Positions 30,301 through 52,503 of a DNA stretch of 64,000 bases are shown in pieces (positions within the stretch are counted from its first letter, which is position 1; each line of letters begins with the position of its first letter). Origin of the DNA: Trypanosoma brucei (Eukaryota); the NCBI GenBank assembly GCA_000002445.1, contig CP000066.1, forward strand, positions 96,001 through 160,000. Direction: 5' to 3'. Position numbers and translations under genes: made by a program. Under the pieces are notes generated by a model that worked only from the letters and a program-made list of their open reading frames with translations, was not told the origin of the DNA and searched no databases.

Positions 30301-30587
30301 TTAAAGGCCGCGGGTAGTGTCCCCGCTAGCTCAGAATATGCATGTATTTTGGATACCCGCGACATGTGCTTATATGTGTGACCTTCCTTATCATTTTATT
30401 TAATTACAGTGTATATTATTATACTTCCCAGACACAGAATATGTATCTCTATGGTGGAAAATATTAAGTTAATTGCATAATAATTTTTACAAACACTACC
30501 CTAGTCGTGGTGTAGTATTAATAAAAGAATATTAGACGACAAAAGAAGATAGTTCCCAGTGGGATTTTGAGTCTAGACGATCGTCGC

Positions 30588-32708: not shown

Positions 32709-35700
32709 TATGGGAGTGGGGTCAGCTAAACCGTTAACACACGCAAACGGAGAGAATGAGACAGTGTAAAAGCACAGCAATACTACTTTATTTGTTCGTC
32801 TGCAGGCGCATGTGTAGGCGTATGTAAGTGTGGATGAATTTATATTGATACACGTGCCCGGATTAAATATGAAGTAAGGGTTGGCAACAAAGCATTTACA
32901 TGTGTTGTCCGGTAAAAGCGTTGGTAGTAGGAGGAGTTGGTGTAGTTTTACTGCTTTGAACAGGGCATGACACGAATTGAAGGCTGGGAAGCCACTGCAC
33001 TTAGATGTGGTAAGTGTACACGGTGTCAAGGAACTTTTTGATAGCAGAGTAACTGTGACAGCGGTCAGAATTGCCCTGTAGACATACATTCACATATGCT
33101 TCCTCCAGACGTCGGTTTGGAAAATCAAGCCTCCTGTGGGTTTCTTTCTGATTTCCGAATCGACTTCGTTGGTGCATGCTTTTTACCCGAAGAGCGTCTG
33201 GTGTCTGGTTGCGAAGCGTTTTTATCTTTCCTGGCCCCTCAAAGTTTTTCAATCTACCCCTACATTTCTGATGAACGGCATCTCTTTTTATTGGACTGAC
33301 CCCAGCATGCTGTTGCACCAAAAGGTTACATCGTGTTTACAGTGTCAGTCTTTCCTGGGTGGACGATGCTTCACCAAATCTTCTTTGAAAATTCTCCCCT
33401 CCATATCCAGAGAGTTTTGATAAGAATATGATTACAAACTCTCTGGATGAACACTTCACTCCTGCGTTCCCTATTCTCAATTTTAATCGCATTTGCGACT
33501 GACCTCTCTAAATCTCCACTTTCGCTTTGACCCTCGTCAGCCGTCTCCTTCGTATTTATTGCCGAGTTTCTCCTTTACAGCAATATCCCTCCAGCAAATC
33601 TGGTTGTGCATGAGAGACAAGTGGCCCTTTTCAAGTTTTCCCTTTCTCTGCGGGTTTGGCCGGTTTTCTCACACGGCGCGTTTAAGTCTCCACTCCTTTC
33701 TTTTCTCTGACTCTCATTTACAGGACCTCTCCTCCCTTCGTGCATTATGAACTCTTATCGCCGTGGATCCTCCTCACCCATTGATTCGCTATCTCCCCGA
33801 TGGACGCCGAGGCAAGCTGGAATCAAATCCCAATCCTCCTTGTCCTGTTGGTAGCCTTACCCCAATCGAGCACACTTTCGAAGCACATAACACGACACAT
33901 TTGACCCCCTCAGGAGTCCTAAGTTAACCAAAATACGAACCCTTAGAAAGTTAATGCATTCATAAACCTTAAACCCCGCTGGCAGCATGAGCACACTTAC
34001 ATATCGAAACCACTTAACCTCTCGCAGCCATTGAGCCATTCCACCGTGGCTCAACATTACCGCAAACAACAAAGAGAAAAATCTCCCACTTCCTTGCTAC
34101 TTCCCCTTATTTTGTGTCACGTAACTATCACCTACAACGTCCACACTGCCAAGAAACCGCTTCCAAGCCCTCCTACATCTGCATGCGACTAATTACCCCT
34201 TTCTTACACGCATCTATATGGGTATAGTTCCTCCCACCAAATTAAGAGATCAAGAAAACCCCACACCCTCCACATCCGAACACCCTCGCATATACAAAAA
34301 ATAAACTGCCTGCAGTCCCTGCTCGACCCTTTTCTATGGTTCCAAACAATAATCCTGCTTAGTCTCCGCGATGTAACGAAGTTCCTCTCCTATCTCCCTT
34401 CTCCATCTTCCAGATCCTCCTCCCTTGACCCAAGCTATGCTTTACTCTCTGCCTTTCCTCGCACACATATTCTGAGGTGCGCACCACGACTATCAACCAC
34501 TGGTAACCCTGTCTCACAACCACATGTATGGCATTCCCAACTTCATACACAGGACAGAACGTACACCCCTAAAGTGAAAAAAAAACCTTGTGCACACAAT
34601 TCCTTCACAATGGTGATTGTGCTTACGCCCCTCAACCGCTTCTCTTGGCGGCCCTGCGTTGAAGTCCGCTCTCACCAAACTCTGCTCGCACGAGCCCTTC
34701 CTAACCAAAATTAAACTTCACAAACACGGGGAGTAGGATATGTTGCTTCTCATTGACCATTTCCTCCGCCTTCCGACTAACATCTGTCCCCATATCCCCA
34801 CCACACCTAACACTAAATACGAGGAATTTTGCATATGTTCTATGAGTCCGCACGCCTTGCATCTAATTGCTTATAATTCAACCCACTTCATCACGCTCAA
34901 TCCGAAAAGTCTAGGAATGCGACTCCAAAGTGTGGCACCACCTCCTTCCAGGTTATACACCCTCTTTTCACTTGAAGGAAGGAGCTGATGCCGCATAAAA
35001 ATAGTTTACTTTGGGAAATTCTAGACGACAGTATTGTGATCGTCGTCATTGCTGTTACCGTGTCTCCACTACTGTCTCAGCGCTTTGGACGTGAGCTCGT
35101 TTCACCTACCGGTCAGACGCATCTGGTAACGGCCATACTGGCGCTTGTAGCGTTGGGTGTTGCCCCATGCTCTTTATATCACACAAACCTGGCAGTGAGT
35201 AGTTTCTGCTAATATGCAATGAATCCTCGAGGCAGCTTCCGTTGCTGCTGTGCCTCAGCTGTTGTTGTATGCGTATATCTTCCGTGATTATTTTTACCGC
35301 CTGAGAAAGGAAATCTTTGCAGAAAAAATGTTTGGAAGCTTTGCTCATGCAAGCGACATCAGGTAGTAACGTCCGACTTGGCTACGACTACACCACGGTT
35401 AAAAGGCTATTGTCCCGATTCATGCCGGGTACGCAGAAGGTGCACCACGGGGCAACCGTCACCATTGGAAACCCTTAGAAAACTGCAGATGGGCGACCAC
35501 CTGGAGCTTATCATCTCCTTCCACACCCTCACTCGTGATGTCATCATTCCAAAAGCAGTGGAAAAGAAGGTATAGTCGGGAAGCGGAGCTAATGTAGAAT
35601 TCAAACTATCAAACATATAGTGTAAATTTTGGTCCAAACGCTTAACGACCCAGTGCACATACGCACAACGGCGCGTCACCTTCGCAACACCGGTCAAGAG

Positions 35701-36746
35701 AGAGAGATGTGCCTGCCGACTGCATCAAAGCAGTTGGCACAGTAGGCAACAAAAAGATAATACGCGGAAAGCGTAAACTAGATATTGAAGGTTTGCCCAC
35801 CCACTTCACAACCGCATTCCCCACGGAACAAGTGGCAGCGGCCCATTTAGACACATCGCCCGGTAAACGAGAATAACTAAGTTGAGAATAGGGACGAGCG
35901 ACAGCGCTCGATCCTCAGTTGCTAACAAATGCCCTGAGTCCCTTTCCCTTCCCTTACTAAGCGTCCCAGGACACGACCGCCGACCTCCAACACAGGTTCT
36001 CTACGGAAGGATAAACGATGAAGAGCAGGGACGCGGATGACACTGCAAAAAGGATTGGACACTGCGACTATGATGAGAATCCTCCAAGGCTTCGAGCAGC
36101 TCGTTGAAAACGAGACGTGGAGCATTTTGGAGGATGCTTTAAGGACACTCTGATACTGACGCCCAGCGACGCCCGCTTCGAAATGAACTTATATTCCTCC
36201 CGACAATTTATTGGTGATCCGTGTTTTGTGACACCCATGGAAAACATGGCGGATGTTGCGGGAAGAGGCGCTGGCAGCCGACACCACCGATCACACACCG
36301 CTTGAACATCCTAGCCCATTTCCACGCAGAAGTACTCCGTACTCAACTAACGAACAACCAGGTTCTCACTACCAACAGTTGACACCCTGACCTTCTCGCT
36401 AACATTGTTGGCTCATAACGGCGTTGTTGTCGAAGCACCCTCCCGACCACAGCTACTTCCTATTCTTTTTCTCCACAGATATGGAACACCAATAAAAATA
36501 AAGCTGATGCACAAATTATGAACACCGGTGACGAAGCGGTGAGAACACCGACGCAAACACCTTTTTAATGCACTAGATGTAAGCGCGCAAATAGGCATCT
36601 AGCAAACTCAAAGTGTTCATAACAACGCACTATTAGAGCGTATGTGCATGTTTGCATACATATGTTAAAGCAAAGAAAACAAAAGAGCAAACCATCTCTG
36701 TCGACGTACCAGTCCTTTCCTATGCGTTGTTGTTACTGGAAACTTT

Positions 36747-37100
36747 TTAATCCCGAGCGTCACCGATGCACTTCACCGACACGACGACTAACACTAATAC
36801 CATCGAAACGACTCCCATCCATGCCAGGAGCGCAGCACGAGTCGAGAGCTCCCCCTCTCCTGCTTCTGAACTTCCAAAAGTGGGGCACTCAATTCCACAA
36901 ATATATGTGTGATCGCCATACATTTCGTCGTCGTCTTTCGGGCAAACATCATTACTCGGATTTGCAGCTGTGACTGCATCCGTTGGTGCCGCAGCAGCGG
37001 AGCCGGGTGAGCCCGGTACGGCTGAAAAGGGGTTTGGGTTGACTTCATTCTCCGCCGTGGTGACAGCATTCGCCTCTTCCGGTTTGACGGCTGCGGCCAT
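36747..37100 (-). CDS. Small hypothetical protein with C-terminal TM segment (117 aa)
   Basis: The ORF is Ala/Pro-rich with an acidic stretch and a terminal hydrophobic helix (LLAWMGVVSMVLVLVVVSV). It is isolated in an ORF-poor region and may be spurious. Confidence 0.25.
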   Translation of the reverse strand: MAAAVKPEEANAVTTAENEVNPNPFSAVPGSPGSAAAAPTDAVTAANPSNDVCPKDDDEMYGDHTYICGIECPTFGSSEAGEGELSTRAALLAWMGVVSMVLVLVVVSVKCIGDARD

Positions 37101-40100
37101 CGTATGAACTTTCTAATGCCTTTGGGAATACGAATGTCCTATAACACGCGCAACTAACGGCAAAATGGAAGAGAACGATGTAGCAAGAAAGAAGCTTAAT
37201 ATCATGCTTTCCGAAAAAAAAAAATATGGTACTGTTTCCGACGTTATTGTAGAAGGATAACCGACCAAAGTATGTATCAATGTTGAAAAGACCCTCCACC
37301 TTTTTCAGTTGCGCCTATCGTACACGTTCGCTTGTCGTTTCCCCGAAGTGGTAACTGATTCAAACTTTTGTGTCTCAAAACCTCCAATTCCTTCAACTTA
37401 TACACGCACCGAAAACGATCTCCACGAGTTTGTTACCGACCTCAGGCCTCCCCATGATCTCTTTTTTCCCGTCAGTCAGATTCGATAGACGCGCTCGTGT
37501 TGGGTTAATAATAAAAAAAATCAGGTTTCAAAACAGTGGAGAACGAACGAGACCCGCGCGCGATAATTCCACAACACTATATGTACACCTTTTAGGTTTC
37601 CTCATTTGGGGTTAAAAAGCATCCTCATTTTCACGACCTCAGTACTTAACGCACTCAAATCCGGCACCACTAAACGTAAAAACAGGGCAAACCGCCATGT
37701 TACACCTTGCCCCCCACCCACACGCACTTTGAAGACGTCTCACTGCCATCGAGATATAATGCCTCCAACCTCATCTGCATTACATCGATCTTCCCAAACC
37801 TTCGCCCCTAACAGCCATCTCACTGGCTTTAAAAAAAAATTCCACATTCTCGCGAGCCCCTGCATATATCTTCTACTTTTTCGCACGCCCTCAAACCCGT
37901 CCATCGACATGCATTCCAACTTCGGTATTCCCTTCAAACCCTCCATATTTGCCAGGTACCAACGGACCAAGAAATTTACGGGACAAAAGACTTCGCTGCT
38001 ACGCTCAAGAACAAGATAAACACATTTCCCCCTCAGACAGATAAAATCCCCTGCGATTCCAAATCTCACTCGCAGCCTTTATGATATTTTTTGGAAAGCG
38101 CCTAGTTGCACCACCCCTACGACGCGCAGAAGCCGTATCATTCCTACACTGTCATTTACTCTGTCCTGATTTCTCAGCTACCCATTTCTTTTTCTTTTTT
38201 CGTTTAGCGTTAACACTAACCACAACTAAATTTGGTAGTACTCCCTTCCCTTCCACATATCCGTCACCTTTCATCAATCCTGCAACCATTGCTACTGCTT
38301 GTAGTTGGGTTCCCCCCCCTACCAAGGGTACAGTGACACAACGCAGCTACTTGGCTACACGAGCACCTATAGCATATCTGAGGCCAGTCAGTTCTTCTTT
38401 TGGATCGGTTGATCCTCAAAACAACCACCATCGTTCTTTCTCTTCTATCTGACCTGAATCCCCCTACGCACGAACAAACATCCGTGTGTGCAACTGAACA
38501 AACACATCGTATATGTCTAAAACAACCATACTCCCATTTCACCTCTTTTTGGCGACACAAACTGCCGTCCCTGGTGGCGAGCACAATCCCCTGAAGTGTT
38601 AAAAACAAAGACATCGATCTACTGTTCCCCTTTCCGAGAATCAGCATTTCAACATTGCTTCATAACATCCTCAAAACAACCACTCGCCTTATTATTATTT
38701 TCCTTTATCTCGCAGCTTGACAACGCAAACATTTCTTTCTATACTCTGCTCTACACCCTGCTTATACATAACGGGACTGAACGCCAACCCACCGAAGCGT
38801 TGACGCTTTCCAAGCAAAGGGGGCGTCTAAAACCATTATCCTTCACCTTCGTAAGGTTGGAAGGGTTATCACCGCACCGTTTCGCCAACGTTTACTCAAA
38901 TGCGTAACAGCAATAACCCAAGGAGCGCGAAGCACAGCCACTGCTGCGAATTGTCTCCACACACGTCGTGTCACTAAAGGGAGGGAGGGACCTCTCCTCG
39001 GTGTCAGCCTATATTAATCCATACCCTTAGAACTTGACACCCCATGTATGGGAAAAACGAGCCATCAATTCTTGTTCACTTCAAATCACCGTATTATCAA
39101 CAACAGCTGTCTGATGTTATGACGACAGAGAAGTTTGGAGTCTCGGTCATATTGCTGTTACAAAAACTTCCGCTACGATTGTGTCTCAAAATATTTTTCT
39201 AAGCATATTGGGTGATTTCCCACTTTGACATATAAACGATCAATGTGTCTGTGATCCAAACAGTGGAACAACATCATATCTCCGTAGAGAATGGGCTTCA
39301 CTACCCTCTCGAGGAGGTAAGCACTTACATTCCTCAGCAAGTAAGATCTTCATCGCATCCAAAGTCTGAATATAATTTGTTAGCCGCAGACGATTTCCTG
39401 TGTTTCCACTTGTTGGTTGTGCTCTTCCACGACTTCAGAAGGTGCAGGAACACGCCTTATTAAAGCAGAGACACAAGTTCCCTCTGTCTACAGGTCCCGC
39501 TTCTGGGTAAGGAAGTTCCAAGGAATATAACCAAGGGGATTTGATACATGCACCCATTATTCACATCATCCTGGTAATATTTAACTTTTCTCTCCACTTC
39601 TCAGCATGGGAAGTGAACTGGATACTATATCTCCTTTCATGAGCAAAGTAAAAAAAAAAAGATGTGTAAAACGTAAAATGATGACCTATGCAAGCTGCTC
39701 GCTCGTCCCACCCAGCATCACACTTACACTGTAAAATACTTATCCCTCCATGCAATAACACGTTTGATTCTTTTACCCAGGTAATAAGGTTTACCGTGCA
39801 GCAATAGCAGAGCGCACTGCTCCAGTGTAACACTAGCAGAACAGCGTGCCGATACAACTGCCGTTACCCACGCGACCTAAATGTTCCCCCCCAAATCATT
39901 TTGAGTGGGAGCTTCAGTAGAACGAGCAGCAGTCTGTCCAACTCTAATGGGACCCATCTCCCAAAAACGCTATTCCATTTCTATCATAAGCATCGCCGCT
40001 GTTCAAAATGCTCCATCAGTTGCTGGGTTGTGAATCCGATATTCATACGATTCCCTATGCTAGCTCGTGTTTTTTTATTTCTACTCGTGACGCTTAACTG

Positions 40101-42287
40101 CCCAGTTCTTGGGACAGTGCTAAGTTGCACAGACGGCTTCATCCAAACGTGTAGTCGGAACTAGAAGAGAATACACAGCAATGCCAAACAGTGGTTATAT
40201 ATCAAGGGGGAAAGGTGTTCCCTTTCGCACTCCACCTGCTTGAAAAATGGGCATGTCACTCTCGCCTGTATCGTTTCGGCACAACGGCCTTCCGCACATG
40301 ATCTCACAGTTTGCTAGCTAGTTTATACGTTTCATAATGCATCCAAGTTGTGTTTCTGTTCTCTACTTTTCTGTAGGACGGAATTAGGACAATGCTTTCG
40401 TCCTTCCAACTGTCACAGGGGGTTTTCTCCTTGCCTATTTCTTTTTTCTTTAACCTAAGCGCGTCACCGCCAGTGTCGGATTGTTTGTATCTAATGAACC
40501 TGTAAGTGACGATAAGTAAGTGCGCGGCGCCATATACCCCAATTCTGAGCTGCTACCGAGCTTTAAGCGTGGCGAAAAAGTGTTTATATGGGGAAGATGG
40601 GTTCTAAGCTTCGGTTTCAGCGCATAATAAAAGTCTTTCTGACACCCTGAAGATCAATTGCTTTTTAAAAGACGGTTCGTGAAATAAAACAAAATTGTGT
40701 GCTAAGCAGTGGACGAGTTATCATACGAACAAAACATAAGGAAGCTTCCTCGAACAACCATAACAAGCAATAGTTAGTGTATAATTTGCTTATGCCATCA
40801 TTTTTATTTTAAATATGATCATCCCCTTTGCCGCACAGATCATTTTAAATGTGTATCACTTAAAAAGAAAACCACTGCTCAAATAACGACGAAAAGAAAG
40901 TTTGTATAACGAGTTACGTCACGGTGATACAAACAAAAATTATGAATACCATTTCGATCAAAAGGCAGTTATGTTCACAGCTGCTGGAAGAGTGCCAGGC
41001 TGCGGCGAGAGTTGAAAGCTTTAAGACGGTCGCAAATCATTATAAAACCGTTTCCTCATTGGCACCTGAAAGCTCGGAATCCCCTTTTACTTCCTGCAAT
41101 GTTTCTCCCGTTTGTCATTAGGGGCGAAAAGTAAGGTATTAGTGCAGTACCAAATTTAATATGGTTTTGCTAAATAAAAAAAAATCTTTTGAAACGTTCA
41201 GAATGTTCCCCACATGGTTACAAGCGACCTTTTCTGGATGTACTAAAATACTCATCTTTCCAATTACCTTAACACGGGTGAGCAGCAACGCCATCACTTT
41301 CATCCATGTGCTGCAAATAAAGGTTCGTGTTTTCTACATGAGTGCACCCCTATTTTCCCCTTTTGTTCTCGTGCATCAAACTGGATTGCATATCTGAGTC
41401 AATATACCTCTTCTATTCCACAATTTGTCACAACACCCCCATATTTTGAGCTGATAAGTATTTAGCTATCTGCACCACTCTCTTTTTATTTCTAAGTACA
41501 GGTGATTATTCATCTGTGATATCCCCAAGTCTTTTGTCTTCTTAACCACCCCCAACAAATTTTAATAGTGTGCGCTAAGTTCGGCACATGCACGGCCTGT
41601 TCCCTCTCACGTCATTCCTTCCACTTCAAGTTATTCCCTTTGTGCGAAATCGTTCGTTAAGTACTTGCACTTTGAATACTTGAAAGGCAGGTGTACGAGC
41701 ATGGGAAGTGGCGATATTGGACCATCTGCCACTCAGTTCATCCTCTTAACAGTAGTTCCCATCATGCCACAAAACTAACGAAATGACTGTTCCCAGTAGC
41801 ACATTTTTTTTCTCCGTGTCGCCTGCTGCAAAAGGGGAAATGGTTTCAATACCTAAAAAAAAGTGCCACATGTTAACGTGTTGGAGGTAGACGTAAAACA
41901 AATCTCCCTACGACATCAACACTTAAAATAAAAAATTAATGCCCCCGTCCCCATATGCCGCCGAAACATCACTGCAGGATACTTGGCTTCCCAACCGTTG
42001 TGAGAAAAGTATGTTCAGTTCCCTTGCACTTTCGCTGCCAAACCGTGTCGCGAGCAGTCAGTTTCCCATAGAGGGATGCAAGGCCCATGATGCTGCTAAA
42101 TGCCGCGACACCGCCAGTGAAAGCTTCAACCGCCGGATGGCCCGTTTGGTTTTCTTTACCGCCTTTGGGCCCTGTCTTATGAATCCGTCACCAGCCTCAT
42201 ATTCGGAGCCGATGCGTGTCCCGGGCCCGACTCTGAGAGCCGGGTTCGTTTGAGTATCACATCATGCGGAACAATACCGCCTCCCCT

Positions 42288-42294
42288 CCACACA

Positions 42295-42334
<40 letters not shown>
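42288..42334. repeat. (CA)n dinucleotide microsatellite
   Basis: acacaaacacacacacacacacacacacacacacacacacacacc. Confidence 0.9.
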
Positions 42335-42336
<2 letters not shown>

Positions 42337-45300
42337 ATCATGTGATCCCCGCGACGAGGTTAGTGAACTTGAAAACGCTGCGGCCCAAAATCAGTCAGGC
42401 GCAGCACCTCTCCCTCTTTGAAGCGACCCCTTCCCTCAAGTGCGATCAGGGTGTGGGGAACACCCCCCTTTGCCACACTGAATGCAGAAAGTCGGCCAGG
42501 GTCCTCACCCTTGTGGAATTACCGTTGGGTCTGAAGCGTTCATAAAGGACTCTGCCGTAGGTAAGGGGAAGCGAAAACGCAAATGCGGTCCACTTTTCTG
42601 ACACGGCTGCCGATGAGGTGCGCATCGCCCGCCAGGCTCCCACTGAGAAACCAAGCGACGATGGCAACATGTCACATCTGGAGGCAGGCCGGCATCCGTT
42701 CTGGGTTGCGGCAACTCGCTGCTGTTCATTGGCAACTGCTGCGCCAAAGTCCGCTGAATGTTGCGCATTAAAATTTGGCTACACGGTTCCCCAGCTCGAG
42801 CTTTTCTGCGAAAGGGTATCCTCAATCCCGCCTCCTTGGTGCGACCCGCCACGACTCAACTTTTTCCGCGCTGTCGTGCACAGGGGCGGGTTACGCGCCA
42901 CCCACACTTTCAAGGGCTTTTTGTACGGCTTGGCGTAGCCAATCAGACGTGTTCGAGCTGGTAGAAGACGGCGGGACGTTTTTTTTTTTTGCAGATGAGT
43001 TGGAGAAATGGGCCAGAGATTGGTCACAGGGAACCCTGGTGGCGCTGGATGAAGGTTTTGTTTCGGCGAAGTCCCCGAATTCCAGCATTAGCGACGCTAG
43101 GTTAAAGAACCCATGATTCGGCGCCGTTGACAACTGCGTGATGGCTGTGTCCGTGCCCTATACTTCTCAGTTTTGCACTCCAGCGATTTTGTTTGGGTGA
43201 GGTTCGCATGCTGGCGACTCTTCTCCGATTGGAGTGGGGTTAGCGGCGCCTCAGTTATGGAAAGGGCATCAGGAAAGGGATTGTGCTACTCGTGGGGCAT
43301 CTGCCGATCCCTTTAACCTCCGTTATCTGCCACCACTGCCATGGGATTTGGCCCAGCAGAGGGCGGCCTTTTGTGTGCTTGTGTGCGAGTCGGTGCCTGT
43401 GTAAACTGACTTAACCCGCTGGCCGTCGTTGGTATTGAATTTAGCGGATGAATACTTCAAGTCTTCATTTGGTTACCTGTGCAACTTTTCTGTCAGGGAG
43501 CGATTTAGGATAATGTTTGTGGCTCTTTAAGACATGCGGATCCAAGGGGAGATAGATTGAGAGATGCTCACACGCGCGTTTTTGCTACACCACGAACATT
43601 AACTTTCGAAGCTATAAAGGTATTGTTAGAAATACAACCGCTCCAGATGTACACAGTCGTTTTTCTATTTGATTTACTTTCTTCAGTGACAGCACCTCTC
43701 GGTGCGTGCCATGACACTGAGTCTTTACTGCACAGCTTGTTTGACCACTGAACACTGGATCAATCAATCGAGCAAGATAGTGATATATGTGTTTTCGCCC
43801 GCTAATTGCTGATTTGTTTTTAATAAATAAAACATTCATGTTTTTTGTTGTGTTTGTGCAGTCATACTACTCATTGACAATCTTATGTTTGGGTATTCAC
43901 AGGATGTATGTATCGTCGTCAGTGACTCTCCTGGTATTGTTGTCCTTATCACTGCAAACCACAGACCAGGCAAGTACGATCATCAAAGTGTGCGTTCACA
44001 CTGTTACAGGTTTTTGACGGGAAATGTTGATGCTGGTGTCTTTATTAGTTATTGCGTTGTTACTCTCTCATGTGTATTATAAAGTAATCGTGAAAGTTGT
44101 GTACGAATCGGTTTTACCAACTTTGCGTTGCGCTGAATTACTATCTTCGCGCCCGACAGCACCATTGTCGATCCTGGATGTATTTTATGTACGCTTACGT
44201 GATACCGCAAATATGTGTGAGAAATCATTGTAAAAGGGTCGATAACATTTATTTAACGTCGTTGACAGTGCGATGCTCATGATTTTTTCGGACTGAGAAA
44301 CTAAACTTAGAAACAGTATTGTGACTCGTATATGCCAACGAGTGAAGTTGTTGCTTTATTGGCCCTCCTTCTGTCGTAATTGTTAGGTGCTTAGGCCACG
44401 CTCTGAAAGGCATGGATTATGACAGTGTTTAACGTAACTGATATTCCTCGTTCTGGTAGGACCGAGGATTACCTCCTTTGGCAAGTTACTGGCAGTTCGT
44501 GGATTACATTAAAGTGGGATATCCTTTCCCTTACGTTGAGGTTGGTTAAATGCAGAGAAGATTATCTTAGTACTTTTTGTCACGGTAGTCGGCAAAAGCA
44601 TCCGTTTTCATTTCAGGGGCATGCGCCTCTTTGCTTTCGTGGTTCCAACATTTCACATGTAATCTCGAGCGTGTCGGTTTAGCACGCTCTTTTCAGCATC
44701 GTGAGCCTTCAAACACGACACTTCTTTAAAGACTGAGCAACCCAATTTTAAAACCGTGGCGAGTGTGAGCTCTGTGCTCTATTTCTGTCATTTGGTTGTC
44801 ACATTAATGGAATGGAACATAGCAGGGTAACAGCAGTAAGCGGTACGAATTGGAACAATACTCATTCATCGGGATTGTGCCGCATCCGAGGGCATAACTT
44901 CACTCTACGAGCATTGCTCTGCAGTATTGGGTTACTGGCTGATTCAATACCATCAGCACTCTTGATCACACTGCTATGAAGCTGTATGGTTGTAAACGAT
45001 GAAGATGTTAGTCATTCCATCAAATCGAACGACATTTTGGCATCACCATCTATCGTAAATGAGTTCCGCCGCTTACCGTTTGTACCTTAGAACACTTCAA
45101 GTAGCGTGAATGTTGGTGCAACTGCAGGTTGACAGTTTATCATAAGGAAACATTTTATTAATGTGTACGGTGGTGCAATACCATTCTCTGTAAAAAAAAG
45201 GGGGGGAATGTATTACAGGAGATGTAGCAATGACAGAAGGAACGGCTGTAACTGGGTTGAACGAGCAGGAAATGGTCGATCAGCGCTGGTCTCCCTGCTG

Positions 45301-48300
45301 CCGCGAGGGGTTGAGGTTATTTGGGTTTCTACTTCCCAATGTGCGCATTTGCTGCTTGGAGTTAAATCAAAAAATACTGTGATGATACCAGCCCTGAATG
45401 ACCCCCTGTGTTCTGCCGCTTGTTCCAAGACAACCCCTTGTACGGGGGAGAGTAGCGGTAACGGCTGTTAAAGCGGATAAACCACACACAAAATAACGTA
45501 ACTTGGCATCCCGTTTACCATCCCTACTTTCCAGCGACTGATCGGGTAGGTTACGTGCATACTCTTGGGGGTCAACACTCTCCCATTAGATAATAAAGAG
45601 ATAACCTACTGTTTCACAAACCATCTGCGTTTTCTGGCTACAAAGGTTTATGTTGGGTAAACATCTGCACTATTGCAGTACAGACTTCACATTTTACAGG
45701 AGGCATATTCGCGGGACGAACAAGCGTAACGCAAGTCATACACTGGTAGAATGCCACTGCAACGGCACGGTCCTCCATAGGAAAAGTGTCGATACTGGTT
45801 CGCCACATCGCAAGGGAGAAGCAGACAGGAGCGAAAGACACTATTCTCATAGAAAAAGAGCGATTGAATAGCTTGCCAACAAACTCGGGTGCGCGAGGCA
45901 AAGAATGGCTCGAGCGTGCCCCAAAGAAACTAGGAATATAAAGGAGGTTACGCTATTGTCTCCGGTAAGAATGGAAACACAGACGACAACACCAAAAACA
46001 GATACACTGGCGCAACACTTCTTGAGCAAAGAGCTGAAAATCTTCTAAATGGAATGACGTTATGTGACAATGTAAGCGGAAAAGTAGCGGAGAAACATAA
46101 GGTGAAAAGTGCGATCAAAGGAAAGACACAGAGTGATGGAGAGGAAAAACATTTAAGGCAAGAACCACAGAAACAGCAGCCATCAACTCAACCAATCAGG
46201 AATTCCCACCGAGGTTACAAAACACGCAAGAAATAATTGTCACCAGGCCATTGCCGATAAAGGGACGGCTGCAGCTGTAATATCACCGGGGGCTGAGGAA
46301 GTAAGGACATATTATTTCCATGGAACAAGCAAACTAACGCGCAGTTACAGAGCATAAACTGTGCAATGAAAAGTGGATTCGAATCACTCGTAGGTGCCCC
46401 CAGGAATGCATCGAAAAAGTGGGAAAGTAATAGCATTTACCAACTCGTTGTCCCGGCCCGTTGTCTCTCACAAAACGGAGACCGCGAGTATCAATGAGGA
46501 AATCCCGTAGCTCAAATTAAGAAACTCCGTATAATTAACTGGAAGAATGGTAAACCCAACGTTTGAAACTGTATTATTACACCGTAGTGAAATACAAACT
46601 GGTGAACCGGCATGAAAAGACAACTTGGTGCCACAGCAGTGCTCATTGCGGAAGACGGGCGTTATTAAAGCTGTGATGGAGTGGAAACCAAAATGAAGGA
46701 AATCAATTTGAAAACACACAAAATTCCAAAGTGTGCCCCGACGAGGAATCGTATGAAACGCATCCGCCCCATGCTGAGGGGGATATCTCTCTTTGCACGA
46801 AAAAAGGTTAATACTGATCCGGTTTCGGAGAAGGACAACAAGGCATTTGTGTGGCACATGACAACAATATGGAAAAAAGAGAACGGACAACATCAAATAC
46901 AAACGGTGTTCTGTTGTGAACATTGACAGCCCTCTTCAAAAGTTTTTGTTGCAATGGACGGGTGACCGGCCCCAAAGCGCCATCGCGGCCAAGTGCAATG
47001 CGACAAAAACTTACTCATATGTCCAGTGCACTTTATTATACAAATGCGACGTGTTTTAGCAACTGACCGAGCGATAAACAAGCATCAATGGGAAAGGAAA
47101 AAGAACATGGAAAGGACTCCGAAAAGGAAACAAAACACAGATAACATACAGAGTGGACTCTAACTTCCATGCATCTATTGTATTTTATTTTATTTCGAAC
47201 AAATGCAATTGGTATGGGAATGCGTGCCACGACGCTTCTGAGGGAACCTTCCAGACGACCTTTTAGAAGCAAAAGGGAGACCTATCTGAAGAAACGGTGG
47301 AGAGCAAGGAAAGGAAAAAGGCTAAATTGACCCTTTCGTCCACCAAGCGTACCAACTGGGTGGGTGGTTGAGGAAGCGCAACGACACAGGTCATTCAAAC
47401 GGGGGCGAACAGAAGGCGCGGCCAAAAGCCCAAAGGACATATCACCAGGAAAATATGGCGGGGATGTGGAATTTCAAATGAGCCCAAGGAATTTTAAGCG
47501 AAAGGGGGAATTGGCATGTTGCAGGTGCAACAAACTGGATCACCGTGTCAAAAACCGATGGCACAGTCATGCAAACAAGTTGAAACCAAAGTTCCCCATT
47601 CGCCACAACAAATGCGGTTGACACTGGATAACGGGGCACTCGAAAAGCGACAACCCGAACGACCGAAGGAGTACCAGCGCCATGTTGTAAAAAAAGAAGC
47701 GCAGGCACAATTAAAAGGATGATTAAGAAAACGAAGCGCGAAAGGTAAAGGATGTGATCGCAGAAAGGAACGTGAAGGATGACAGCGAAAACACTGTATT
47801 CCTTGAAAAATTAGAGATGGTAATGCAAAAAAGGGCGGACTGAAGCGCAGAGTAGAGCACGGTACAAGATGTCGATGGTGCGATTATTAGCCTGTTCACT
47901 TGTCAGAATTGATTTTACACACCAGGAACAAACACTTCGATAAAAATGCAATGGGAAGAGATTGAGAAGCGGAGCGTTCCTAGTATTGAAGACGGTTCCA
48001 AAGGATCTCCAATGTACGCAACACCCGACAAAATGTATGGAACAAGGTACCCTCATCGAGCACTTGTAGCACTGGCGTGGGCACAAAATAGAGGGCTGCT
48101 GTGACGCTCTAAGAGTAGGGTGAGTGGAAACTCCCACACACTTACTACAATGAATAGCCCCTGAGCACTAAGTGGATAATGTGGCTTGATTAGACCCGAG
48201 AAAAGAGGTTAACGGCTTCGCGTAAATGTGGAAATTTTCTTGGTAAAGTTGTTTAGGCCCGACGATGTAGAGAAGGAAGCGCTACCTCCCTCCGATGCGG

Positions 48301-51111
48301 CACACAGAAATCCAAACAGCAAGGTTTAAAGGTATACGTTGGCTGAAACCATGGCACGTAACAATGCAACTAAATCGGAAGATGCCGGTGGCATCACTGT
48401 TGCCAGCGCGAACAGACCTAACGCCGCAGTGGGTGAAGTAGTAATGCAAAGTCGACCGCTAGCTAAAAGATGTCAAACAAAAAGTAAACATAGGGAAATG
48501 CTAGGTACTTAATCGATGGGTGGTAACAAACCCAAACAAAAAGTAGAAGATATCGTTGAAGCAGGCAGATACTGAACAGGCAACGAAGAACAAAGGGGCT
48601 ACCGGCTTGCAGAAATAACAGAAAGCAAAGTGTGGGGTAAGGTGTGGAAAAACAACGGGGAAACTGACTTTTTTGGTGTTAGTTGTGGTGATATTTTCAT
48701 ACACCTAAAGAGGGTGGTCGAGCCAAAGAAAAGGTGGCAAACGCGCAGAGGAACCGCGTAGCTGCATTGACCTGTGTGAAAAGAAAAAAAAATACTTTAC
48801 CAGCATCCGAGGGTTTGTATATTTTGTGTACAAACGAGGGTTGAATTGTGATTGTCACGGGAGTCCGCGGGAACTATAAGAACAAAGTAGAATTAGTAAT
48901 GCATTCAGCGGGCTGCGCGTTAGTGCCCTAGAACATGCTTGCACTCAATACTTTCATTCCCATCACCGTATCTATCGTCGTTTTCATTGCTCCCCCCCTA
49001 TATTCCCGTTATTCCAAGCTCCTCTCTGCGGATTTGCTTGCGATTTAACGCCTTGCTCCCGTCGCATGGCCTTACAAGTGAAACATCGATGAGAACACGC
49101 AACTTCCCCTACGATAAAAGTTGAAAATGCAAGGCATCACACAACCTGCCGACACTTGTGTATTCCATGGCTTCGAAGGGGAAAAACACGTTTCCCAACC
49201 AACGTGAAGAATATTTTTTCGAAACGACAGAGAAGCAAACAAAGCAGATTGTTTCCCCACTGAATGTGATATTCCCCGGAGTTTTCTTTGTGCAGGTTGT
49301 GGGTCGTGAGGGCCCACTTAGTTCGATTCAGGGCATCTTTTTCCTTCCCCGGGGCTGGAGATCGCGTGAAACAAAGGGCGCGGTCACTACCACCAAATCC
49401 GCTATTTAATCATCCCATTTATTAGGAGCATGTACGTACGATGAAAAGAAAAGAAAGTAAATTAGCACGTGCATTTATACATGTGCGTGCCTCTCCCCCA
49501 TATTCCCTACTGCGTTCCACGTGTTGCGTAATTGCCTTTTTTTGACCGTGTTTTATCCCCTCGCGTAGCCTCGTCGATTGCTACATTTTACCTGAAGGCG
49601 AGGGGTGAACCGCATCCCCGGGAACGTGTTTTGTAGGTTCGTCTGATGGTTTAGGTGTAAAATATCTCGCCTCCGGCCGCTCTCGTTGTGCGCTGCGTCT
49701 AATCGGGCGTTTTTCGAATTGGAAGGGCGTTAGCGCTCTTTTGGTGTTTTTCACTGATGTGCAAAAAAAAAGTGGGTGCTTTAGGAGGTTTGGTTTTTGT
49801 CGTTTGCCACCGTGCTTCGTCCAGTTGAGACGCTGGTTTGAATGATTTTACAACCTGAGTGGCCCTCGGTACCTCTTTTTCCGAACCCTAGCCACTTATT
49901 TTCCGCTGTTTTACCACGTATCGCACATCAGATTTTTGAATCCCTGATAAATGTGGATGTGAAACGTGGGACCCGAAAGCGCCTTGGAGGACATGAGCGT
50001 GATGATGAGACGAGCACAGCAACGACTGGTCGCGCATGAGGCAATGGAAATTACACGCACTTTTCCATCGCTCGTATTCCGAGTTAAGGGGCAGGTTGGG
50101 TGGGTGCTGCAGCGGCTCGTAGCCATCCTCTTTTCAGATATTAAAAAAGGGACACGAAAGTCGAGGCAACTGCAAATGGGCACGGAAACCCGGCGACAAA
50201 TTGTGCTTCGATGTCGCCCTACACAAGCCATATTATCTCACCTTGTGTGATTTCATCAGAGCGCTTCCACCGCAGAGTCCCAACCAATGATGTGTGCAGC
50301 TAAACCAAACACGCCAGAGTACAGAGCAGAATAGGTTGCAACACAATACAATGGTCGCGACACCGTAGCGCATGGCGATGGACAACGGCAGACGCACTTC
50401 ATTCGCAAACGAAGAAACTGGTCCGAAACTTGCTGCGGCCGATGCGTGTCAGCATCCAATATTACGGGACTTTATCAAGTTATCGATTGCTCGGAAAGGA
50501 AACGAGACCTCGTGGCGTCAAGAACGACATGCTGCGGTGTAATTTTGTGCTGTTTGTCCTGCTAATAAACTCAATGGCTCCATTCCGGGGACGCTTCATT
50601 TCAAAACCTTTTTCAGTCAATGTCAGAAAAAATGTGAAAACCCCGAACGCGATTTATTTTATTGTCCACGGAACCAAACACACAAATACCCCGTCAAGAG
50701 AGTTGGTGTTTTCAAGAGAGAGATTAACCTCAGTTTCGGGAAGAATATTGAACGAAAAGTCTTTTCCCTACGAAGTTGTTCAAAGATTTAACTCTTTTTT
50801 TTTCTTTCACCCTATCGCGTGCGTGGGGAATTGAATTAATCCCCCATACTTCGGAAGCTAAAAATGGGGAAGATGGGTACCACTGGCTCACCCTCGCTTT
50901 TCTTTTGATTCCCGACCCTACACGCTGAAGGTCGGTGTTCTTTTTGGTAGCGCACAAGAACGGCAGTCCACTCACGTGCGCAATCCTTGTTTTCGTCACA
51001 GAACTTTCCAGTCCCGTTTTAACTTCAAAATTTCCGTCTTTTTTCTTTACACTTTACTGTAAGCGCGGTATCAAAGGGACTAACCATCGGTTTAAGGCAG
51101 TCATAAAAGTA

Positions 51112-52503
51112 AGAATGATGCTCGGGTTCGAATCGGTTTCTGAGTTTACAGTCTACATCACCTTTATATTCTTCGGAATGTCGGCGGTGGTGGTGACAAC
51201 TTCCATATTTTCGATTCCATTCTTTTTTATCGAGTACTACAAGTATGCGCAGGGGGATCCCAATGCAGAGGCGGAGGATCAAAGGTTTTGGAATAACGTC
51301 TTCACGTACTACAATGCCACGACGTTCCTTGTGGAGTTCCTTCTGACTTTATTCATGCTGACAAATCTTGGAAGGCGGATCCCTCTGGCTGTTCGACTCG
51401 GTGCCGGTCTCATCCTCTCAATTTTGGCAGTTTTCGTCGTGATAATGGTCACCATAATAAAAACAACAGAAACCGGCGCCAAGGTAACGATTATGCTCGT
51501 CGGTGTGATCAATGGTGTTGCGGCAACACTTTGTGACACCGGAAACGGTGCCCTTATTAGCCCGTTCCCTACAAAATTTTTCAGCGCCGTTGTGTGGGGT
51601 GTCGCAGTTTGTGGTATCATCACATCGTTCTTCTCTATCGTAATAAAAGCATCTATGGAGAGCAACTACGAAAGCATGTTGACACAGTCCCGAATTTTCT
51701 TTGGCTTGGTTGTCCTTCTTGAAGTGGTTTCCTGCATCCTCTTGGTGCTTCTGAGGAAGAACCCATACGCCATGAAGTATGCAGCAGAGTTTCGGTACGC
51801 CGCAAGGGAAAGGACCAATGCTTGTGAAAACAAAGAAAGTGGCGCATCAAATGGCCCAGCAGAACAAGATGAAGACTCCGTGGCGATTGATAATAACACC
51901 ACGAAAGGGAACGTGATGACGGTCACCGTGGACCCCGACACCATGAAGGACACGGACCAAGTGGAAGACATTACAAACTCGCAGCAAATGCTGAAGGCGA
52001 AGGTATCTGTGGTGCTGAAGCGCGTCTGGCCCATGCTGGCGGCGGGTTTCCTCGCCTTCTCCACCACATTTCTCGTCTACCCTGGTGTATTCTTCGCCGT
52101 CAAAACCGATGTGCCAAACGGTTGGTATATGACTATTACTGCGGCGATGTTTCATTTCGGTGACTTCCTATCGCGCCTCCTCCTTCAGTTCAAGCGGCTG
52201 CAGCCTTCACCACGTTATGTTGTGGTTGGGACATTTGCACGTGTCTTTCTTATAATTCCTCTTGTTTTCTGTGTGCGCGGTATCATTGGTGGCACTCTTC
52301 TCCCTTACATTCTTTCATTTCTTTGGGGCCTCACGTACGGATATTTTGGCGGGATGGCGCTAATACACACGCCACGCACCGGTTCACTGACAGCAGCTGG
52401 TGAACGCTCTCTTGCTGCCAATTGTGCCGTCATTGCGATTCTGTGCGGTCTTTTCTCCGGCTCCATGCTCGCGCTTGCCGTCAAGGAGGGACTTCCTCAA
52501 TAG
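51112..52503 (+). CDS. Equilibrative nucleoside/nucleobase transporter (ENT family), about 463 aa
   Basis: Topology is 11 predicted TM helices with a large hydrophilic loop between TM6 and TM7 (...RKNPYAMKYAAEFRYAARERTNACENKES...). The N-terminus MMLGFESVSEFTVYITFIFFGMS resembles kinetoplastid NT/AT transporters. The longer ORF from 50935 has a non-TM leader, so the start was placed at MMLG. Confidence 0.6.
   Translation, partial: RMMLGFESVSEFTVYITFIFFGMSAVVVTTSIFSIPFFFIEYYKYAQGDPNAEAEDQRFWNNVFTYYNATTFLVEFLLTLFMLTNLGRRIPLAVRLGAGLILSILAVFVVIMVTIIKTTETGAKVTIMLVGVINGVAATLCDTGNGALISPFPTKFFSAVVWGVAVCGIITSFFSIVIKASMESNYESMLTQSRIFFGLVVLLEVVSCILLVLLRKNPYAMKYAAEFRYAARERTNACENKESGASNGPAEQDEDSVAIDNNTTKGNVMTVTVDPDTMKDTDQVEDITNSQQMLKAKVSVVLKRVWPMLAAGFLAFSTTFLVYPGVFFAVKTDVPNGWYMTITAAMFHFGDFLSRLLLQFKRLQPSPRYVVVGTFARVFLIIPLVFCVRGIIGGTLLPYILSFLWGLTYGYFGGMALIHTPRTGSLTAAGERSLAANCAVIAILCGLFSGSMLALAVKEGLPQ

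What the first reader, a model, noticed from the sequence alone, without database searches (positions are those of the whole stretch)
33100..51000. About 18 kb region with no substantial ORF between divergently oriented gene blocks
Trypanosome core DNA is normally densely coding. Here the longest ORFs are about 150 aa and overlap on both strands. The region separates minus-strand ESAGs from the plus-strand NT gene, so it is a candidate divergent strand-switch and transcription start region. It contains a (CA)22 microsatellite and GC-rich patches (about 42500-43100, 49300-49800). It could hold ncRNA genes, decayed pseudogenes or repeats. This is the least explained part of the window.
Basis: inference. 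Interest (0 to 1): 0.55.

Follow-up and report, generated by a model that had tools for sequence, protein, structure and literature searches.

The report
Divergent transcription start region, non-coding transcripts
The 18 kb "empty" stretch is an ordinary divergent transcription start region of Trypanosoma brucei chromosome 3, already shown in a 2010 transcriptome study to produce six processed, mostly non-coding RNAs, one of which probably encodes a small unannotated membrane protein.

Summary
Between the LRRP start codon (32708, - strand) and the adenosine-transporter start codon (51115, + strand) there are 18,406 bases with no ORF longer than random sequence would give. There are no repeats, no tRNA or Rfam hit, and no Pfam hit in the 300 longest stop-free ORFs.

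The window is T. brucei TREU927 chromosome 3, positions 96,001-160,000 (v4 coordinates minus 96,000). Kolev et al. 2010 list six trans-spliced, polyadenylated "novel transcripts" in this gap. Tb3.NT.1-3 lie on the - strand (32842-40660) and Tb3.NT.4-6 on the + strand (44298-50964). They diverge from a 3.6 kb centre. The same paper lists Tb927.3.590 as a one-gene unit with a "Divergent" start. All 13 published splice-acceptor positions I checked follow an AG in the window.

The centre holds the (CA)23 repeat, which reads (TG)n on the leftward sense strand. It also holds the GC-rich patch, the G-C skew switch (42911) and GT-rich runs on each sense strand, as described for T. brucei GT-rich promoters.

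Five transcripts have no conserved ORF. Tb3.NT.2 carries a 117-aa ORF at its first AUG, with a coding periodicity signal, intact in three taxa.

The parts
30588..32708 (-). Left flank: LRRP gene Tb927.3.580 (706 aa, RING plus leucine-rich repeats, ESAG8-like). It is the first annotated CDS of the leftward unit.
   Evidence: Exact match to the annotated 706-aa TREU927 protein. The gene is named in PMC3605285.
32842..35531 (-). Tb3.NT.1: trans-spliced, polyadenylated transcript of 2,690 nt at 0.57 RNAs/cell. The longest sense ATG-ORF is 80 aa.
   Evidence: Kolev 2010 Table S7, chr3 128842-131531. An AG precedes the 5' end. No period-3 signal.
35631..37153 (-). Tb3.NT.2: transcript of 1,523 nt at 2.89 RNAs/cell, the most abundant of the six. 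It carries ORF117.
   Evidence: Table S7 and S12, chr3 131631-133153, predominant splice site 133153. A polypyrimidine tract plus AG lies upstream.
36747..37100 (-). ORF117: candidate small protein gene of 117 aa with a C-terminal transmembrane helix. It starts at the first AUG, 53 nt below the splice site.
   Evidence: No ATG in the 5' UTR. Period-3 signal of 4.1-5.4, within the range of real genes. Intact in T. b. gambiense and T. equiperdum with 3 synonymous and 1 non-synonymous change. Annotated in T. equiperdum as TEOVI_000838000. No other homologue and no Pfam family.
37249..40660 (-). Tb3.NT.3: transcript of 3,412 nt at 1.59 RNAs/cell, the first processed RNA of the leftward unit. Its longest ORF (127 aa) starts 2 kb from the 5' end and is broken by indels in T. 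equiperdum.
   Evidence: Table S7 and S12, chr3 133249-136660. AG at both reported acceptor sites. ORF not conserved.
40661..44297 (.). 3.6 kb centre without a listed processed transcript. I infer that this is the bidirectional RNA polymerase II initiation zone.
   Evidence: It is the gap between the 5' ends of Tb3.NT.3 and Tb3.NT.4. Table S14 lists a 'Divergent' start for Tb927.3.590. The skew and GT-element polarity switch here.
42289..42335 (-). (CA)23 on the + strand, which reads (TG)n on the - strand. This is a GT-rich element on the sense strand of the leftward unit, 1.6 kb upstream of its first splice site.
   Evidence: TRF and the sequence. It accounts for 12 hits on the - strand to the coding-strand 10-mers of Wedel 2017 Dataset EV1.
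42336..43100 (.). GC-rich core (about 55.5% GC) containing the cumulative G-C skew minimum at 42911.
42978..43858 (+). GT-rich runs on the + strand (42978-42991, 43187-43199, 43839-43858), upstream of Tb3.NT.4.
   Evidence: There are 7 Wedel 10-mer hits on the + strand and none on the - strand in 42983-43849. GT fraction is 0.52-0.58 in 42.5-45 kb.
44298..45600 (+). Tb3.NT.4: transcript of 1,303 nt at 1.59 RNAs/cell, the first processed RNA of the rightward unit.
   Evidence: Table S7 and S12, chr3 140298-141600, predominant acceptor 140387. AG at 44298 and 44387.
45646..49448 (+). Tb3.NT.5: transcript of 3,803 nt at 0.48 RNAs/cell, purine-rich on the sense strand, longest ORF 80 aa.
   Evidence: Table S7. 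AG at the 5' end and skews. The 151-aa antisense ORF inside it is broken by indels in gambiense.
49569..50964 (+). Tb3.NT.6: transcript of 1,396 nt at 1.26 RNAs/cell, ending 99 nt before the NT splice site. It contains the 130-aa ORF that the gambiense annotation calls a gene.
   Evidence: Table S7. It shows no period-3 signal and 1 synonymous to 2 non-synonymous changes.
51064..52503 (+). Right flank: adenosine transporter Tb927.3.590. The splice acceptor is at 51064 and the CDS is 51115-52503. It is the only annotated gene of the rightward unit.
   Evidence: Exact protein match. Table S12 gives the acceptor at 147064 with a 5' UTR of 51. Table S14 lists a one-gene unit.

Best explanation
The region is a divergent strand-switch region of T. 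brucei chromosome 3 (v4 positions about 128.7-147.1 kb). It sits at the border between the subtelomeric VSG/ESAG block and the chromosome core. I infer that RNA polymerase II starts in both directions inside a 3.6 kb centre (window 40661-44297). That centre carries a GC-rich core flanked by GT-rich and G-run elements on each sense strand, including the (TG)23 repeat on the - strand.

It is shown that the two primary transcripts are cut by trans-splicing and polyadenylation into units arranged like ordinary trypanosome genes. There are three per side, separated by gaps of 45-120 nt, before the first annotated genes are reached: LRRP on the left and the adenosine transporter on the right.

Five of the six RNAs have no conserved reading frame. 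They are best read as long non-coding, or simply 'spacer', transcripts that occupy the roughly 10 kb-wide start-region chromatin. The sixth, Tb3.NT.2, most likely is an mRNA for a 117-aa membrane protein specific to the Trypanozoon group.

Shown: the transcripts, their strands, their splice sites, the absence of coding or repeat content, and the compositional polarity. Inferred: the exact initiation sites, H2A.Z-type chromatin, promoter activity of the GT-rich elements, and translation of ORF117.
For: Locus identity: five window proteins match TREU927 chromosome 3 proteins exactly. The offset of 96,000 is fixed by two genes. NT has its acceptor at 147064 plus a 51-nt UTR, giving an ATG at window 51115. 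ARD1 has its acceptor at 156719 minus 25, giving an ATG at window 60694.

Six novel trans-spliced, polyadenylated transcripts cover 14,127 of the 18,406 nt, three on each strand, pointing away from the centre. All 13 published 5' ends or predominant acceptor sites that I checked are preceded by AG, most with a polypyrimidine tract.

Table S14 of the same paper lists Tb927.3.590 as a unit of its own of type 'Divergent'.

GC skew is negative from 19 to 43 kb and positive from 43 to 49 kb, with the cumulative minimum at 42911. G runs of 5 or more are 11:3 in favour of the - strand left of 42.5 kb and 7:2 in favour of the + strand to the right. The 10-mers that Wedel et al. 2017 found enriched on the coding strand at start regions hit the - strand at 39895-42337 and the + strand at 42983-43849. 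That paper shows such GT-rich elements drive directional transcription and H2A.Z deposition, and that start regions are about 10 kb wide.

Non-coding nature: ORF lengths match random sequence. Period-3 signal is absent except at 36.3-37.8 kb. There is no significant Pfam hit in the 300 longest stop-free ORFs. The window's own VSG, ESAG, LRRP and NT proteins find nothing, and there are no internal or external repeats. There is no tRNA and no Rfam family. The longest ORFs are broken by indels in sister taxa. The region is colinear in T. b. gambiense and T. equiperdum at 95.5-98.3% identity, so it is not an assembly artefact.
Against: I could not see chromatin data or 5'-triphosphate reads for this locus, so the initiation zone is placed by inference. 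Table S14 lists the rightward unit but no leftward partner unit starting at Tb927.3.580.

The Wedel 10-mer hits are few. They are dominated by overlapping hits in one microsatellite, and similar densities occur elsewhere in the window (for example 12-13 kb and 59-61 kb), so they are consistent with a promoter but not specific to one.

Long polypyrimidine runs (14 nt or more) are more frequent on the antisense strands of both arms. This follows from the G>C skew but is not what a simple splice-signal count would predict.

The transcripts were mapped in procyclic T. b. rhodesiense only.
Confidence: 0.85

Rival explanations
1. The region is a graveyard of decayed genes (RHS, VSG, ESAG, retroposon or other). 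These have lost their reading frames but are still transcribed and processed because their splice and polyadenylation signals survive.
For: The layout is gene-like: six units of 1.3-3.8 kb with 45-120 nt spacers. The region lies next to a subtelomeric block rich in pseudogenes. Weak period-3 values (2.5-3.4, above the 99th percentile of shuffles) occur at 37.5-38.7, 42.6-44.7 and 47.7 kb. LRRP itself is a pseudogene in T. b. gambiense.
Against: There is no significant Pfam hit in 300 ORFs; Pfam does recognise the neighbouring ESAG1, ESAG2 and NT proteins. tblastn with every ORF of 100 aa or more from the rest of the window found nothing. There is no repeat and no similarity to the rest of the window. 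ORF lengths match random sequence. The weak period-3 values come from mononucleotide shuffles, which ignore low-complexity sequence.
Confidence: 0.07
2. The transcripts are functional long non-coding RNAs that regulate their neighbours, for example the developmentally regulated transporter Tb927.3.590 or the ESAG-like unit. They are not passive spacer RNA.
For: T. brucei has more than 1,400 trans-spliced, polyadenylated lncRNAs and at least one (grumpy) has a proven role (PMC9200285). Tb927.3.590 is a one-gene unit and is strongly regulated during development and after bromodomain inhibition. Tb3.NT.1 and NT.2 DNA (33-37 kb) is as conserved as the LRRP CDS and free of indels against gambiense.
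Against: Abundances are low (0.5-2.9 RNAs per cell). No Rfam family or embedded snoRNA was detected. Most of the region diverges at the rate of other intergenic DNA, 95-97.7%. The low divergence at 30.5-37 kb may simply be a haplotype block that also includes LRRP.
Confidence: 0.12
3. The long gene-free stretch serves mainly as a chromatin boundary or replication-related element between the silent subtelomeric VSG/ESAG compartment and the transcribed core. The transcription is a side effect.
For: Its position fits: a VSG array and ESAG-like genes lie to the left, and conserved core genes (ARD1, a DEAD-box helicase) lie to the right. Its length is unusual for a start region.
Against: There are no tandem or AT-rich repeats of the centromere type. 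I saw no data on ORC binding, cohesin or Hi-C boundaries. The simpler start-region reading accounts for every feature.
Confidence: 0.08

Closest known systems
Divergent strand-switch regions / RNA polymerase II transcription start regions of T. brucei (Siegel et al. 2009; Kolev et al. 2010; Wedel et al. 2017)
   Same: Genes and processed transcripts diverge from a central gap. There is a G>C skew, and GT-rich and poly-G elements lie on each sense strand. No focused promoter motif is present. The start-region scale is about 10 kb. The locus itself is listed as 'Divergent' in Kolev Table S14.
   Different: The CDS-free span (18.4 kb) is long, and start-region chromatin would lie entirely over non-coding transcripts rather than over 'the first few genes'. 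The rightward unit holds a single annotated gene, and the leftward unit runs into ESAG-like genes and a VSG array.
Trans-spliced, polyadenylated novel or long non-coding transcripts of T. brucei (Kolev et al. 2010 Table S7; Guegan et al. 2022)
   Same: Spliced-leader acceptor with polypyrimidine tract and AG, poly(A) tail, low abundance, no conserved ORF, intergenic position.
   Different: Here six of them lie in a row and fill a whole strand-switch region. None has a tested function, and I could not check whether they are in the 2022 lncRNA catalogue.
Small-ORF mRNAs found by transcriptomics and ribosome profiling in T. brucei
   Same: Tb3.NT.2 has a 53-nt 5' UTR without an AUG, and a 117-aa ORF at the first AUG with a transmembrane helix. 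The ORF is conserved in sister taxa.
   Different: No peptide or ribosome-footprint evidence was seen here. There is no homologue outside Trypanozoon. Alternative splice sites inside the ORF are implied by the large acceptor-site dispersion (195 nt).

Membership tests
T. brucei divergent strand-switch / Pol II transcription start region | Flanking protein-coding genes point away from each other | tested here: met
   LRRP, ESAG2, ESAG11 and the ESAG1-like gene are on the - strand and NT is on the + strand.
T. brucei divergent strand-switch / Pol II transcription start region | Processed transcripts on both strands diverge from a central gap | tested here: met
   Tb3.NT.1-3 (-) end at 40660 and Tb3.NT.4-6 (+) begin at 44298. 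AG precedes all checked acceptor sites after coordinate transfer.
T. brucei divergent strand-switch / Pol II transcription start region | Experimental evidence of initiation (5'-triphosphate or SL-less poly(A)+ RNA at the site) | tested here: inconclusive
   Kolev 2010 Table S14 classes the unit starting at Tb927.3.590 as 'Divergent'. No coordinates of the initiation tags are given, and the leftward unit is not listed.
T. brucei divergent strand-switch / Pol II transcription start region | Enrichment of H2A.Z, H2B.V, H4K10ac and BDF3 over about 10 kb | not testable with these tools
   No ChIP-seq tracks or coordinate tables for chromosome 3 were available.
T. brucei divergent strand-switch / Pol II transcription start region | G>C and T>A skew with GT-rich or poly-G 10-mers on the coding strand at the 5' end of each start region | tested here: met
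   The skew switch is at 42911. 10-mer polarity is and G-run polarity. Caveat: hits are few and low-complexity, and similar densities occur elsewhere in the window.
Trans-spliced polyadenylated long non-coding RNA | Spliced-leader acceptor and poly(A) site mapped; length over 200 nt | tested here: met
   Table S7 and S12 entries. AG and polypyrimidine context.
Trans-spliced polyadenylated long non-coding RNA | No conserved or translated ORF | tested here: met
   Met for five of the six: longest ORFs are 80-130 aa, far from the 5' end, without period-3 signal, and broken by indels or without excess of synonymous changes. Not met for Tb3.NT.2. Ribosome association was not testable.
Decayed RHS / VSG / ESAG / retroposon pseudogene | Residual protein-level similarity to the family in some frame | tested here: not met
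   Pfam on 300 stop-free ORFs of 38 aa or more gave a best per-protein E of 0.00087, which is chance level for 300 queries. tblastn with the window's own gene products gave nothing below E 0.01. A proteome-wide frameshift-tolerant search was not possible, because the concatenated query failed its positive control.
Centromere or repeat island | Tandem AT-rich repeats, retroelement copies | tested here: not met
   The only tandem repeat is the 47-nt (CA)n. There are no dispersed repeats. GC is 46%, above the window mean.
Structured small RNA genes (tRNA, snRNA, snoRNA) | Match to a covariance model or tRNA fold | tested here: not met
   ARAGORN found none. Rfam gathering found none. A permissive Rfam search gave only three chance-level hits with E of 0.59 or more. 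Trypanosome snoRNAs are poorly covered by Rfam.
Small protein-coding gene (ORF117 in Tb3.NT.2) | ORF at the first AUG of a mapped mRNA, coding periodicity, frame conserved in relatives | tested here: met
Small protein-coding gene (ORF117 in Tb3.NT.2) | Peptide or ribosome-footprint evidence | not testable with these tools
   Tb3.NT.2 is absent from Kolev Tables S8-S10 as far as the text search shows. No other data set was accessible.

The most novel reading that the evidence does not exclude
The run of non-coding transcripts is a regulatory module rather than passive spacer. On this reading it sets the chromatin state and output of two unusual units at the core-subtelomere border: a one-gene unit for a developmentally regulated adenosine transporter, and a unit that reads into ESAG-like genes and a VSG array. 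ORF117 would add an unannotated Trypanozoon-specific membrane protein.
Probability: 0.1. Interest if true: 0.55.

Novelty: already known. Interest (0 to 1): 0.15.

Why it matters
It matters little beyond annotation. The locus is a textbook-type T. brucei divergent start region whose transcripts were catalogued in 2010.

Two small points have some value. First, the GenBank record of TREU927 lacks a probable 117-aa membrane-protein gene that is annotated only in T. equiperdum. Second, the locus is a clean natural example of a start region that lies wholly in non-coding DNA and drives a one-gene unit. That could be convenient for promoter dissection or for asking whether polymerase II units in trypanosomes can be regulated individually.

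Tried and rejected
I replaced it with two sets of 150 stop-free ORFs, which found nothing.

2. tblastn with all ORFs of 100 aa or more from the rest of the window, and blastn of the region against itself and against the rest of the window, found nothing.

3. For ORF117, a word-indexed search found only the T. equiperdum orthologue. An exhaustive HMMER search added one hit at E 8e-6, to a bacterial-type protein made of many tandem repeats. I rejected it as a repeat-inflated chance match.

A 4,840-aa version returned no hit at all, not even the known identical T. equiperdum protein. The positive control therefore failed, and the result says nothing.

5. I tried to fetch the paralogous LRRP locus on chromosome 1 to look for a shared upstream region. 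Only a 4.1 kb contig was available, so I dropped this.

The Wedel 2017 supplements carry no chromosome 3 coordinates. Siegel 2009 and Cordon-Obras 2022 are not held. The Guegan 2022 supplements are not held. No paper mentions Tb3.NT.1-6 or gene IDs between Tb927.3.580 and .590 in its main text.

7. Counting long polypyrimidine runs by strand as a direction marker gave the opposite polarity to the mapped transcripts. I judge this a by-product of the G>C skew.

Full report
**What the window is.** Five proteins encoded in the window are identical to proteins of Trypanosoma brucei brucei TREU927 chromosome 3, a contig of 1,653,225 bp. They are an ESAG1-like protein, ESAG11, ESAG2, a putative adenosine transporter and the ARD1 acetyltransferase subunit. 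The 706-aa LRRP also matches its annotated protein exactly. Published text names the two genes that bracket the finding: Tb927.3.580 is the ESAG8-like LRRP and Tb927.3.590 is the adenosine transporter.

The layout of the window is as follows:
- VSG genes on the + strand (1-14 kb).
- An unidentified stretch of broken ORFs (15-19 kb).
- ESAG-like genes and LRRP on the - strand (20-32.7 kb).
- The gap.
- The transporter on the + strand (51115-52503).
- Core genes on the - strand (56.5-64 kb).

**Check of the observation.** The gap from the LRRP ATG (32708) to the transporter ATG (51115) is 18,406 nt. Only one ORF reaches 150 aa. The longest stop-to-stop frame is 176 aa, and shuffled sequence gives 149 +/- 19. 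The (CA) repeat is at 42289-42335 with 23.5 copies and one interruption. The patch at 42500-43100 is 55.7% GC and is the GC-richest non-VSG DNA in the window. The patch at 49300-49800 is 48.5% GC and unremarkable. The region is colinear and of nearly equal length in T. b. gambiense DAL972 and in T. equiperdum OVI, at 95.5-98.3% identity. It is therefore not an assembly artefact.

**What is not there.**
- There are no tRNA genes and no Rfam family at gathering score. A permissive Rfam search of the region gave only three chance-level hits.
- There is no tandem repeat other than (CA)n, no dispersed repeat and no DNA similarity to the rest of the window.
- The 300 longest stop-free ORFs (38 aa or more, all six frames) gave no meaningful Pfam match. 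The best per-protein E-values were 0.00087 and 0.0031, which is chance level for 300 queries. Pfam does recognise the neighbouring ESAG1, ESAG2 and transporter proteins.
- tblastn with every ORF of 100 aa or more from the rest of the window, including the VSGs, ESAGs, LRRP and transporter, found nothing better than E 0.013.
- A Fourier test for three-base periodicity gives a mean signal of 7.8 (minimum 4.1) inside known genes and a median of 1.05 in the region. One gene-like peak of 4.1-5.4 stands out at 36.3-37.8 kb.

**What is there.** The supplementary tables of Kolev et al. 2010 (PLoS Pathog 6:e1001090, PMC2936537) give chromosome 3 coordinates.
- The transporter's predominant splice-acceptor site is at 147064 with a 51-nt 5' UTR.
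- ARD1's acceptor is at 156719 with a 25-nt 5' UTR.
- Both place the start codons exactly at window 51115 and 60694 if 96,000 is subtracted.

With that offset, all 13 published 5' ends or predominant acceptor sites that I inspected are immediately preceded by AG. They comprise nine for the novel transcripts and four for annotated genes. Most also have a polypyrimidine tract upstream. The chance expectation is 1 in 16 per site.

Table S7 lists six 'novel transcripts', all trans-spliced and polyadenylated, inside the gap:

| Transcript | Strand | Window coordinates | RNAs per cell |
|---|---|---|---|
| Tb3.NT.1 | - | 32842-35531 | 0.57 |
| Tb3.NT.2 | - | 35631-37153 | 2.89 |
| Tb3.NT.3 | - | 37249-40660 | 1.59 |
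| Tb3.NT.4 | + | 44298-45600 | 1.59 |
| Tb3.NT.5 | + | 45646-49448 | 0.48 |
| Tb3.NT.6 | + | 49569-50964 | 1.26 |

For comparison, the transporter mRNA is at 8.04 RNAs per cell. The six transcripts cover 14,127 nt and are separated by 45-120 nt, the usual spacing between a poly(A) site and the next splice site in trypanosomes. They point away from a 3,637-nt centre (40661-44297) for which no processed transcript is listed. Table S14 of the same paper lists 'Tb927.3.590 to Tb927.3.590, +, Divergent' as a putative polymerase II unit.

**The centre.** GC skew is negative from 19 to 43 kb and positive from 43 to 49 kb. The cumulative G-C minimum is at 42911, inside the GC-rich core. In the known genes of this window the sense strand has G>C, so the skew says 'sense = minus' to the left and 'sense = plus' to the right, as the transcripts do.

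Wedel et al. 2017 (EMBO J 36:2581, PMC5579346) report four relevant points:
- T. brucei start regions are about 10 kb wide.
- The 5' ends of start regions carry GT-rich and poly-G 10-mers on the coding strand, with (GT)n-type words among the most enriched.
- Synthetic GT-rich elements drive directional transcription.
- The same elements drive H2A.Z deposition.

Scanning the window with their 157 10-mers gives hits on the - strand at 39895-42337, twelve of them from the (TG)n repeat, and hits on the + strand at 42983-43849. GT fraction on the + strand is 0.42-0.46 at 38-39 kb and 41.5-42.5 kb, and 0.52-0.58 at 42.5-45 kb. Runs of five or more G favour the - strand 11:3 left of 42.5 kb and the + strand 7:2 to the right.

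These features fit a bidirectional start zone centred near 42.4-42.9 kb. They are not specific, because similar 10-mer densities occur elsewhere in the window.

**Coding potential of the six RNAs.**
- In Tb3.NT.1, NT.3, NT.4, NT.5 and NT.6 the longest sense ORFs are 80-130 aa, and most lie hundreds to thousands of bases from the 5' end.
- The 127-aa ORF of NT.3 and the 151-aa antisense ORF inside NT.5 are broken by indels in sister taxa.
- The 130-aa ORF of NT.6, which the gambiense annotation calls a gene, shows 1 synonymous and 2 non-synonymous changes and no periodicity.

Tb3.NT.2 differs in several ways:
- Its 53-nt 5' UTR has no ATG.
- The first AUG opens a 117-aa ORF (36747-37100, - strand) that coincides with the periodicity peak.
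- The ORF ends in a strongly hydrophobic 19-residue segment.
- It is intact in gambiense and T. equiperdum, with three synonymous changes and one conservative change at the penultimate residue.
- T. equiperdum annotators called it a gene, TEOVI_000838000.
- It has no other credible homologue among 5.8 billion clustered proteins or 1.84 billion representatives and no Pfam family.
- The large dispersion of its acceptor sites (195 nt) implies that some RNAs start inside the ORF.

I rate it about even odds that it is a real protein.

**Mechanism.** The most likely account is as follows.
- Polymerase II initiates in both directions within the 3.6 kb centre.
- The nascent RNAs are cut by coupled trans-splicing and polyadenylation at ordinary signals into three RNAs per side.
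- Polymerase then reaches LRRP and the ESAG-like genes on the left and the transporter on the right.
- The rightward unit ends within about 4 kb, where it meets the converging core unit (Tb927.3.600 onward, - strand).

The non-coding RNAs occupy the space that start-region chromatin usually shares with the first genes of a unit. The transcripts and their polarity are shown. The initiation sites, the chromatin and the promoter role of the GT-rich elements are inferred.

**Rivals.**
- Decayed genes remain possible only as an ancient origin beyond detection. I could not run a proteome-wide frameshift-tolerant search, because the concatenated query failed its positive control.
- A regulatory role for the RNAs is not excluded. 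The transporter is developmentally regulated and functional lncRNAs exist in this organism. However, abundance is low and most of the region diverges like other intergenic DNA.
- A boundary or origin function is untested.

**Comparison and novelty.** This is a member of the known class of T. brucei divergent strand-switch and transcription start regions. Its RNAs are members of the known class of trans-spliced, polyadenylated novel or long non-coding transcripts. Both were already catalogued for this very locus in 2010. No main text in the searchable library discusses the locus individually.

The only loose ends are the probable small gene, which is missing from the TREU927 GenBank record, and the indel-free, CDS-like conservation of 30.5-37 kb. 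That conservation may be no more than a haplotype block. Interest is low.

Noticed in passing
window 30588-32708 (-); L002: The LRRP gene Tb927.3.580 carries one premature stop codon in T. b. gambiense DAL972 and is not called as a gene there. It is intact in T. equiperdum (13 synonymous, 6 non-synonymous differences).
   Followed up: partly
window 30500-37000: This stretch has no indels at all against gambiense and is 98-99% identical. The non-coding Tb3.NT.1 and NT.2 DNA is therefore as conserved as the LRRP coding sequence, while 37.5-46 kb is 95-97% identical with indels. This could be constraint or a low-divergence haplotype block; undecided.
   Followed up: partly
window 21078-21377 and 24140-24439: A 300-nt direct repeat at 92% identity, with an adjoining 70-nt stretch at 90%. 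It suggests a partial second copy of the ESAG1-like gene between that gene and ESAG11.
   Followed up: no
window 15600-18600 (+): A chain of frame-shifted ORFs of 110-236 aa on one strand, one with Cys/His-rich motifs. It looks like a decayed large gene or retroelement. No Pfam hit, so it remains unidentified.
   Followed up: partly
window 50442-50834 (+); L001 9328-9720: The gambiense annotation has a 130-aa 'hypothetical protein' just upstream of the transporter. It lies 874 nt inside transcript Tb3.NT.6, has no coding periodicity, and shows 1 synonymous to 2 non-synonymous changes. It is probably a spurious gene call.
   Followed up: yes
window 25971-27335 (-): ESAG2 is far more diverged between TREU927 and gambiense or T. 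equiperdum (about 94% identity, with indels) than its neighbours ESAG11 (98.6%) and LRRP (98.6-99.1%).
   Followed up: no
window 52504-57240 and 57367-59480 (-): The transporter unit ends at poly(A) sites around 53232-53297 and meets the converging core unit within about 3-4 kb, forming a convergent strand-switch region. Another published non-coding transcript, Tb3.NT.8, lies at 57367-59480 (-) between Tb927.3.600 and ARD1.
   Followed up: no
Kolev 2010 Table S14 (chromosome 1): The only close paralogue of this LRRP, Tb927.1.3670 on chromosome 1, is also listed as a one-gene unit with a 'Divergent' start. The two ESAG8-like genes may sit in similar promoter-proximal settings. The chromosome 1 flank could not be fetched.
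   Followed up: partly
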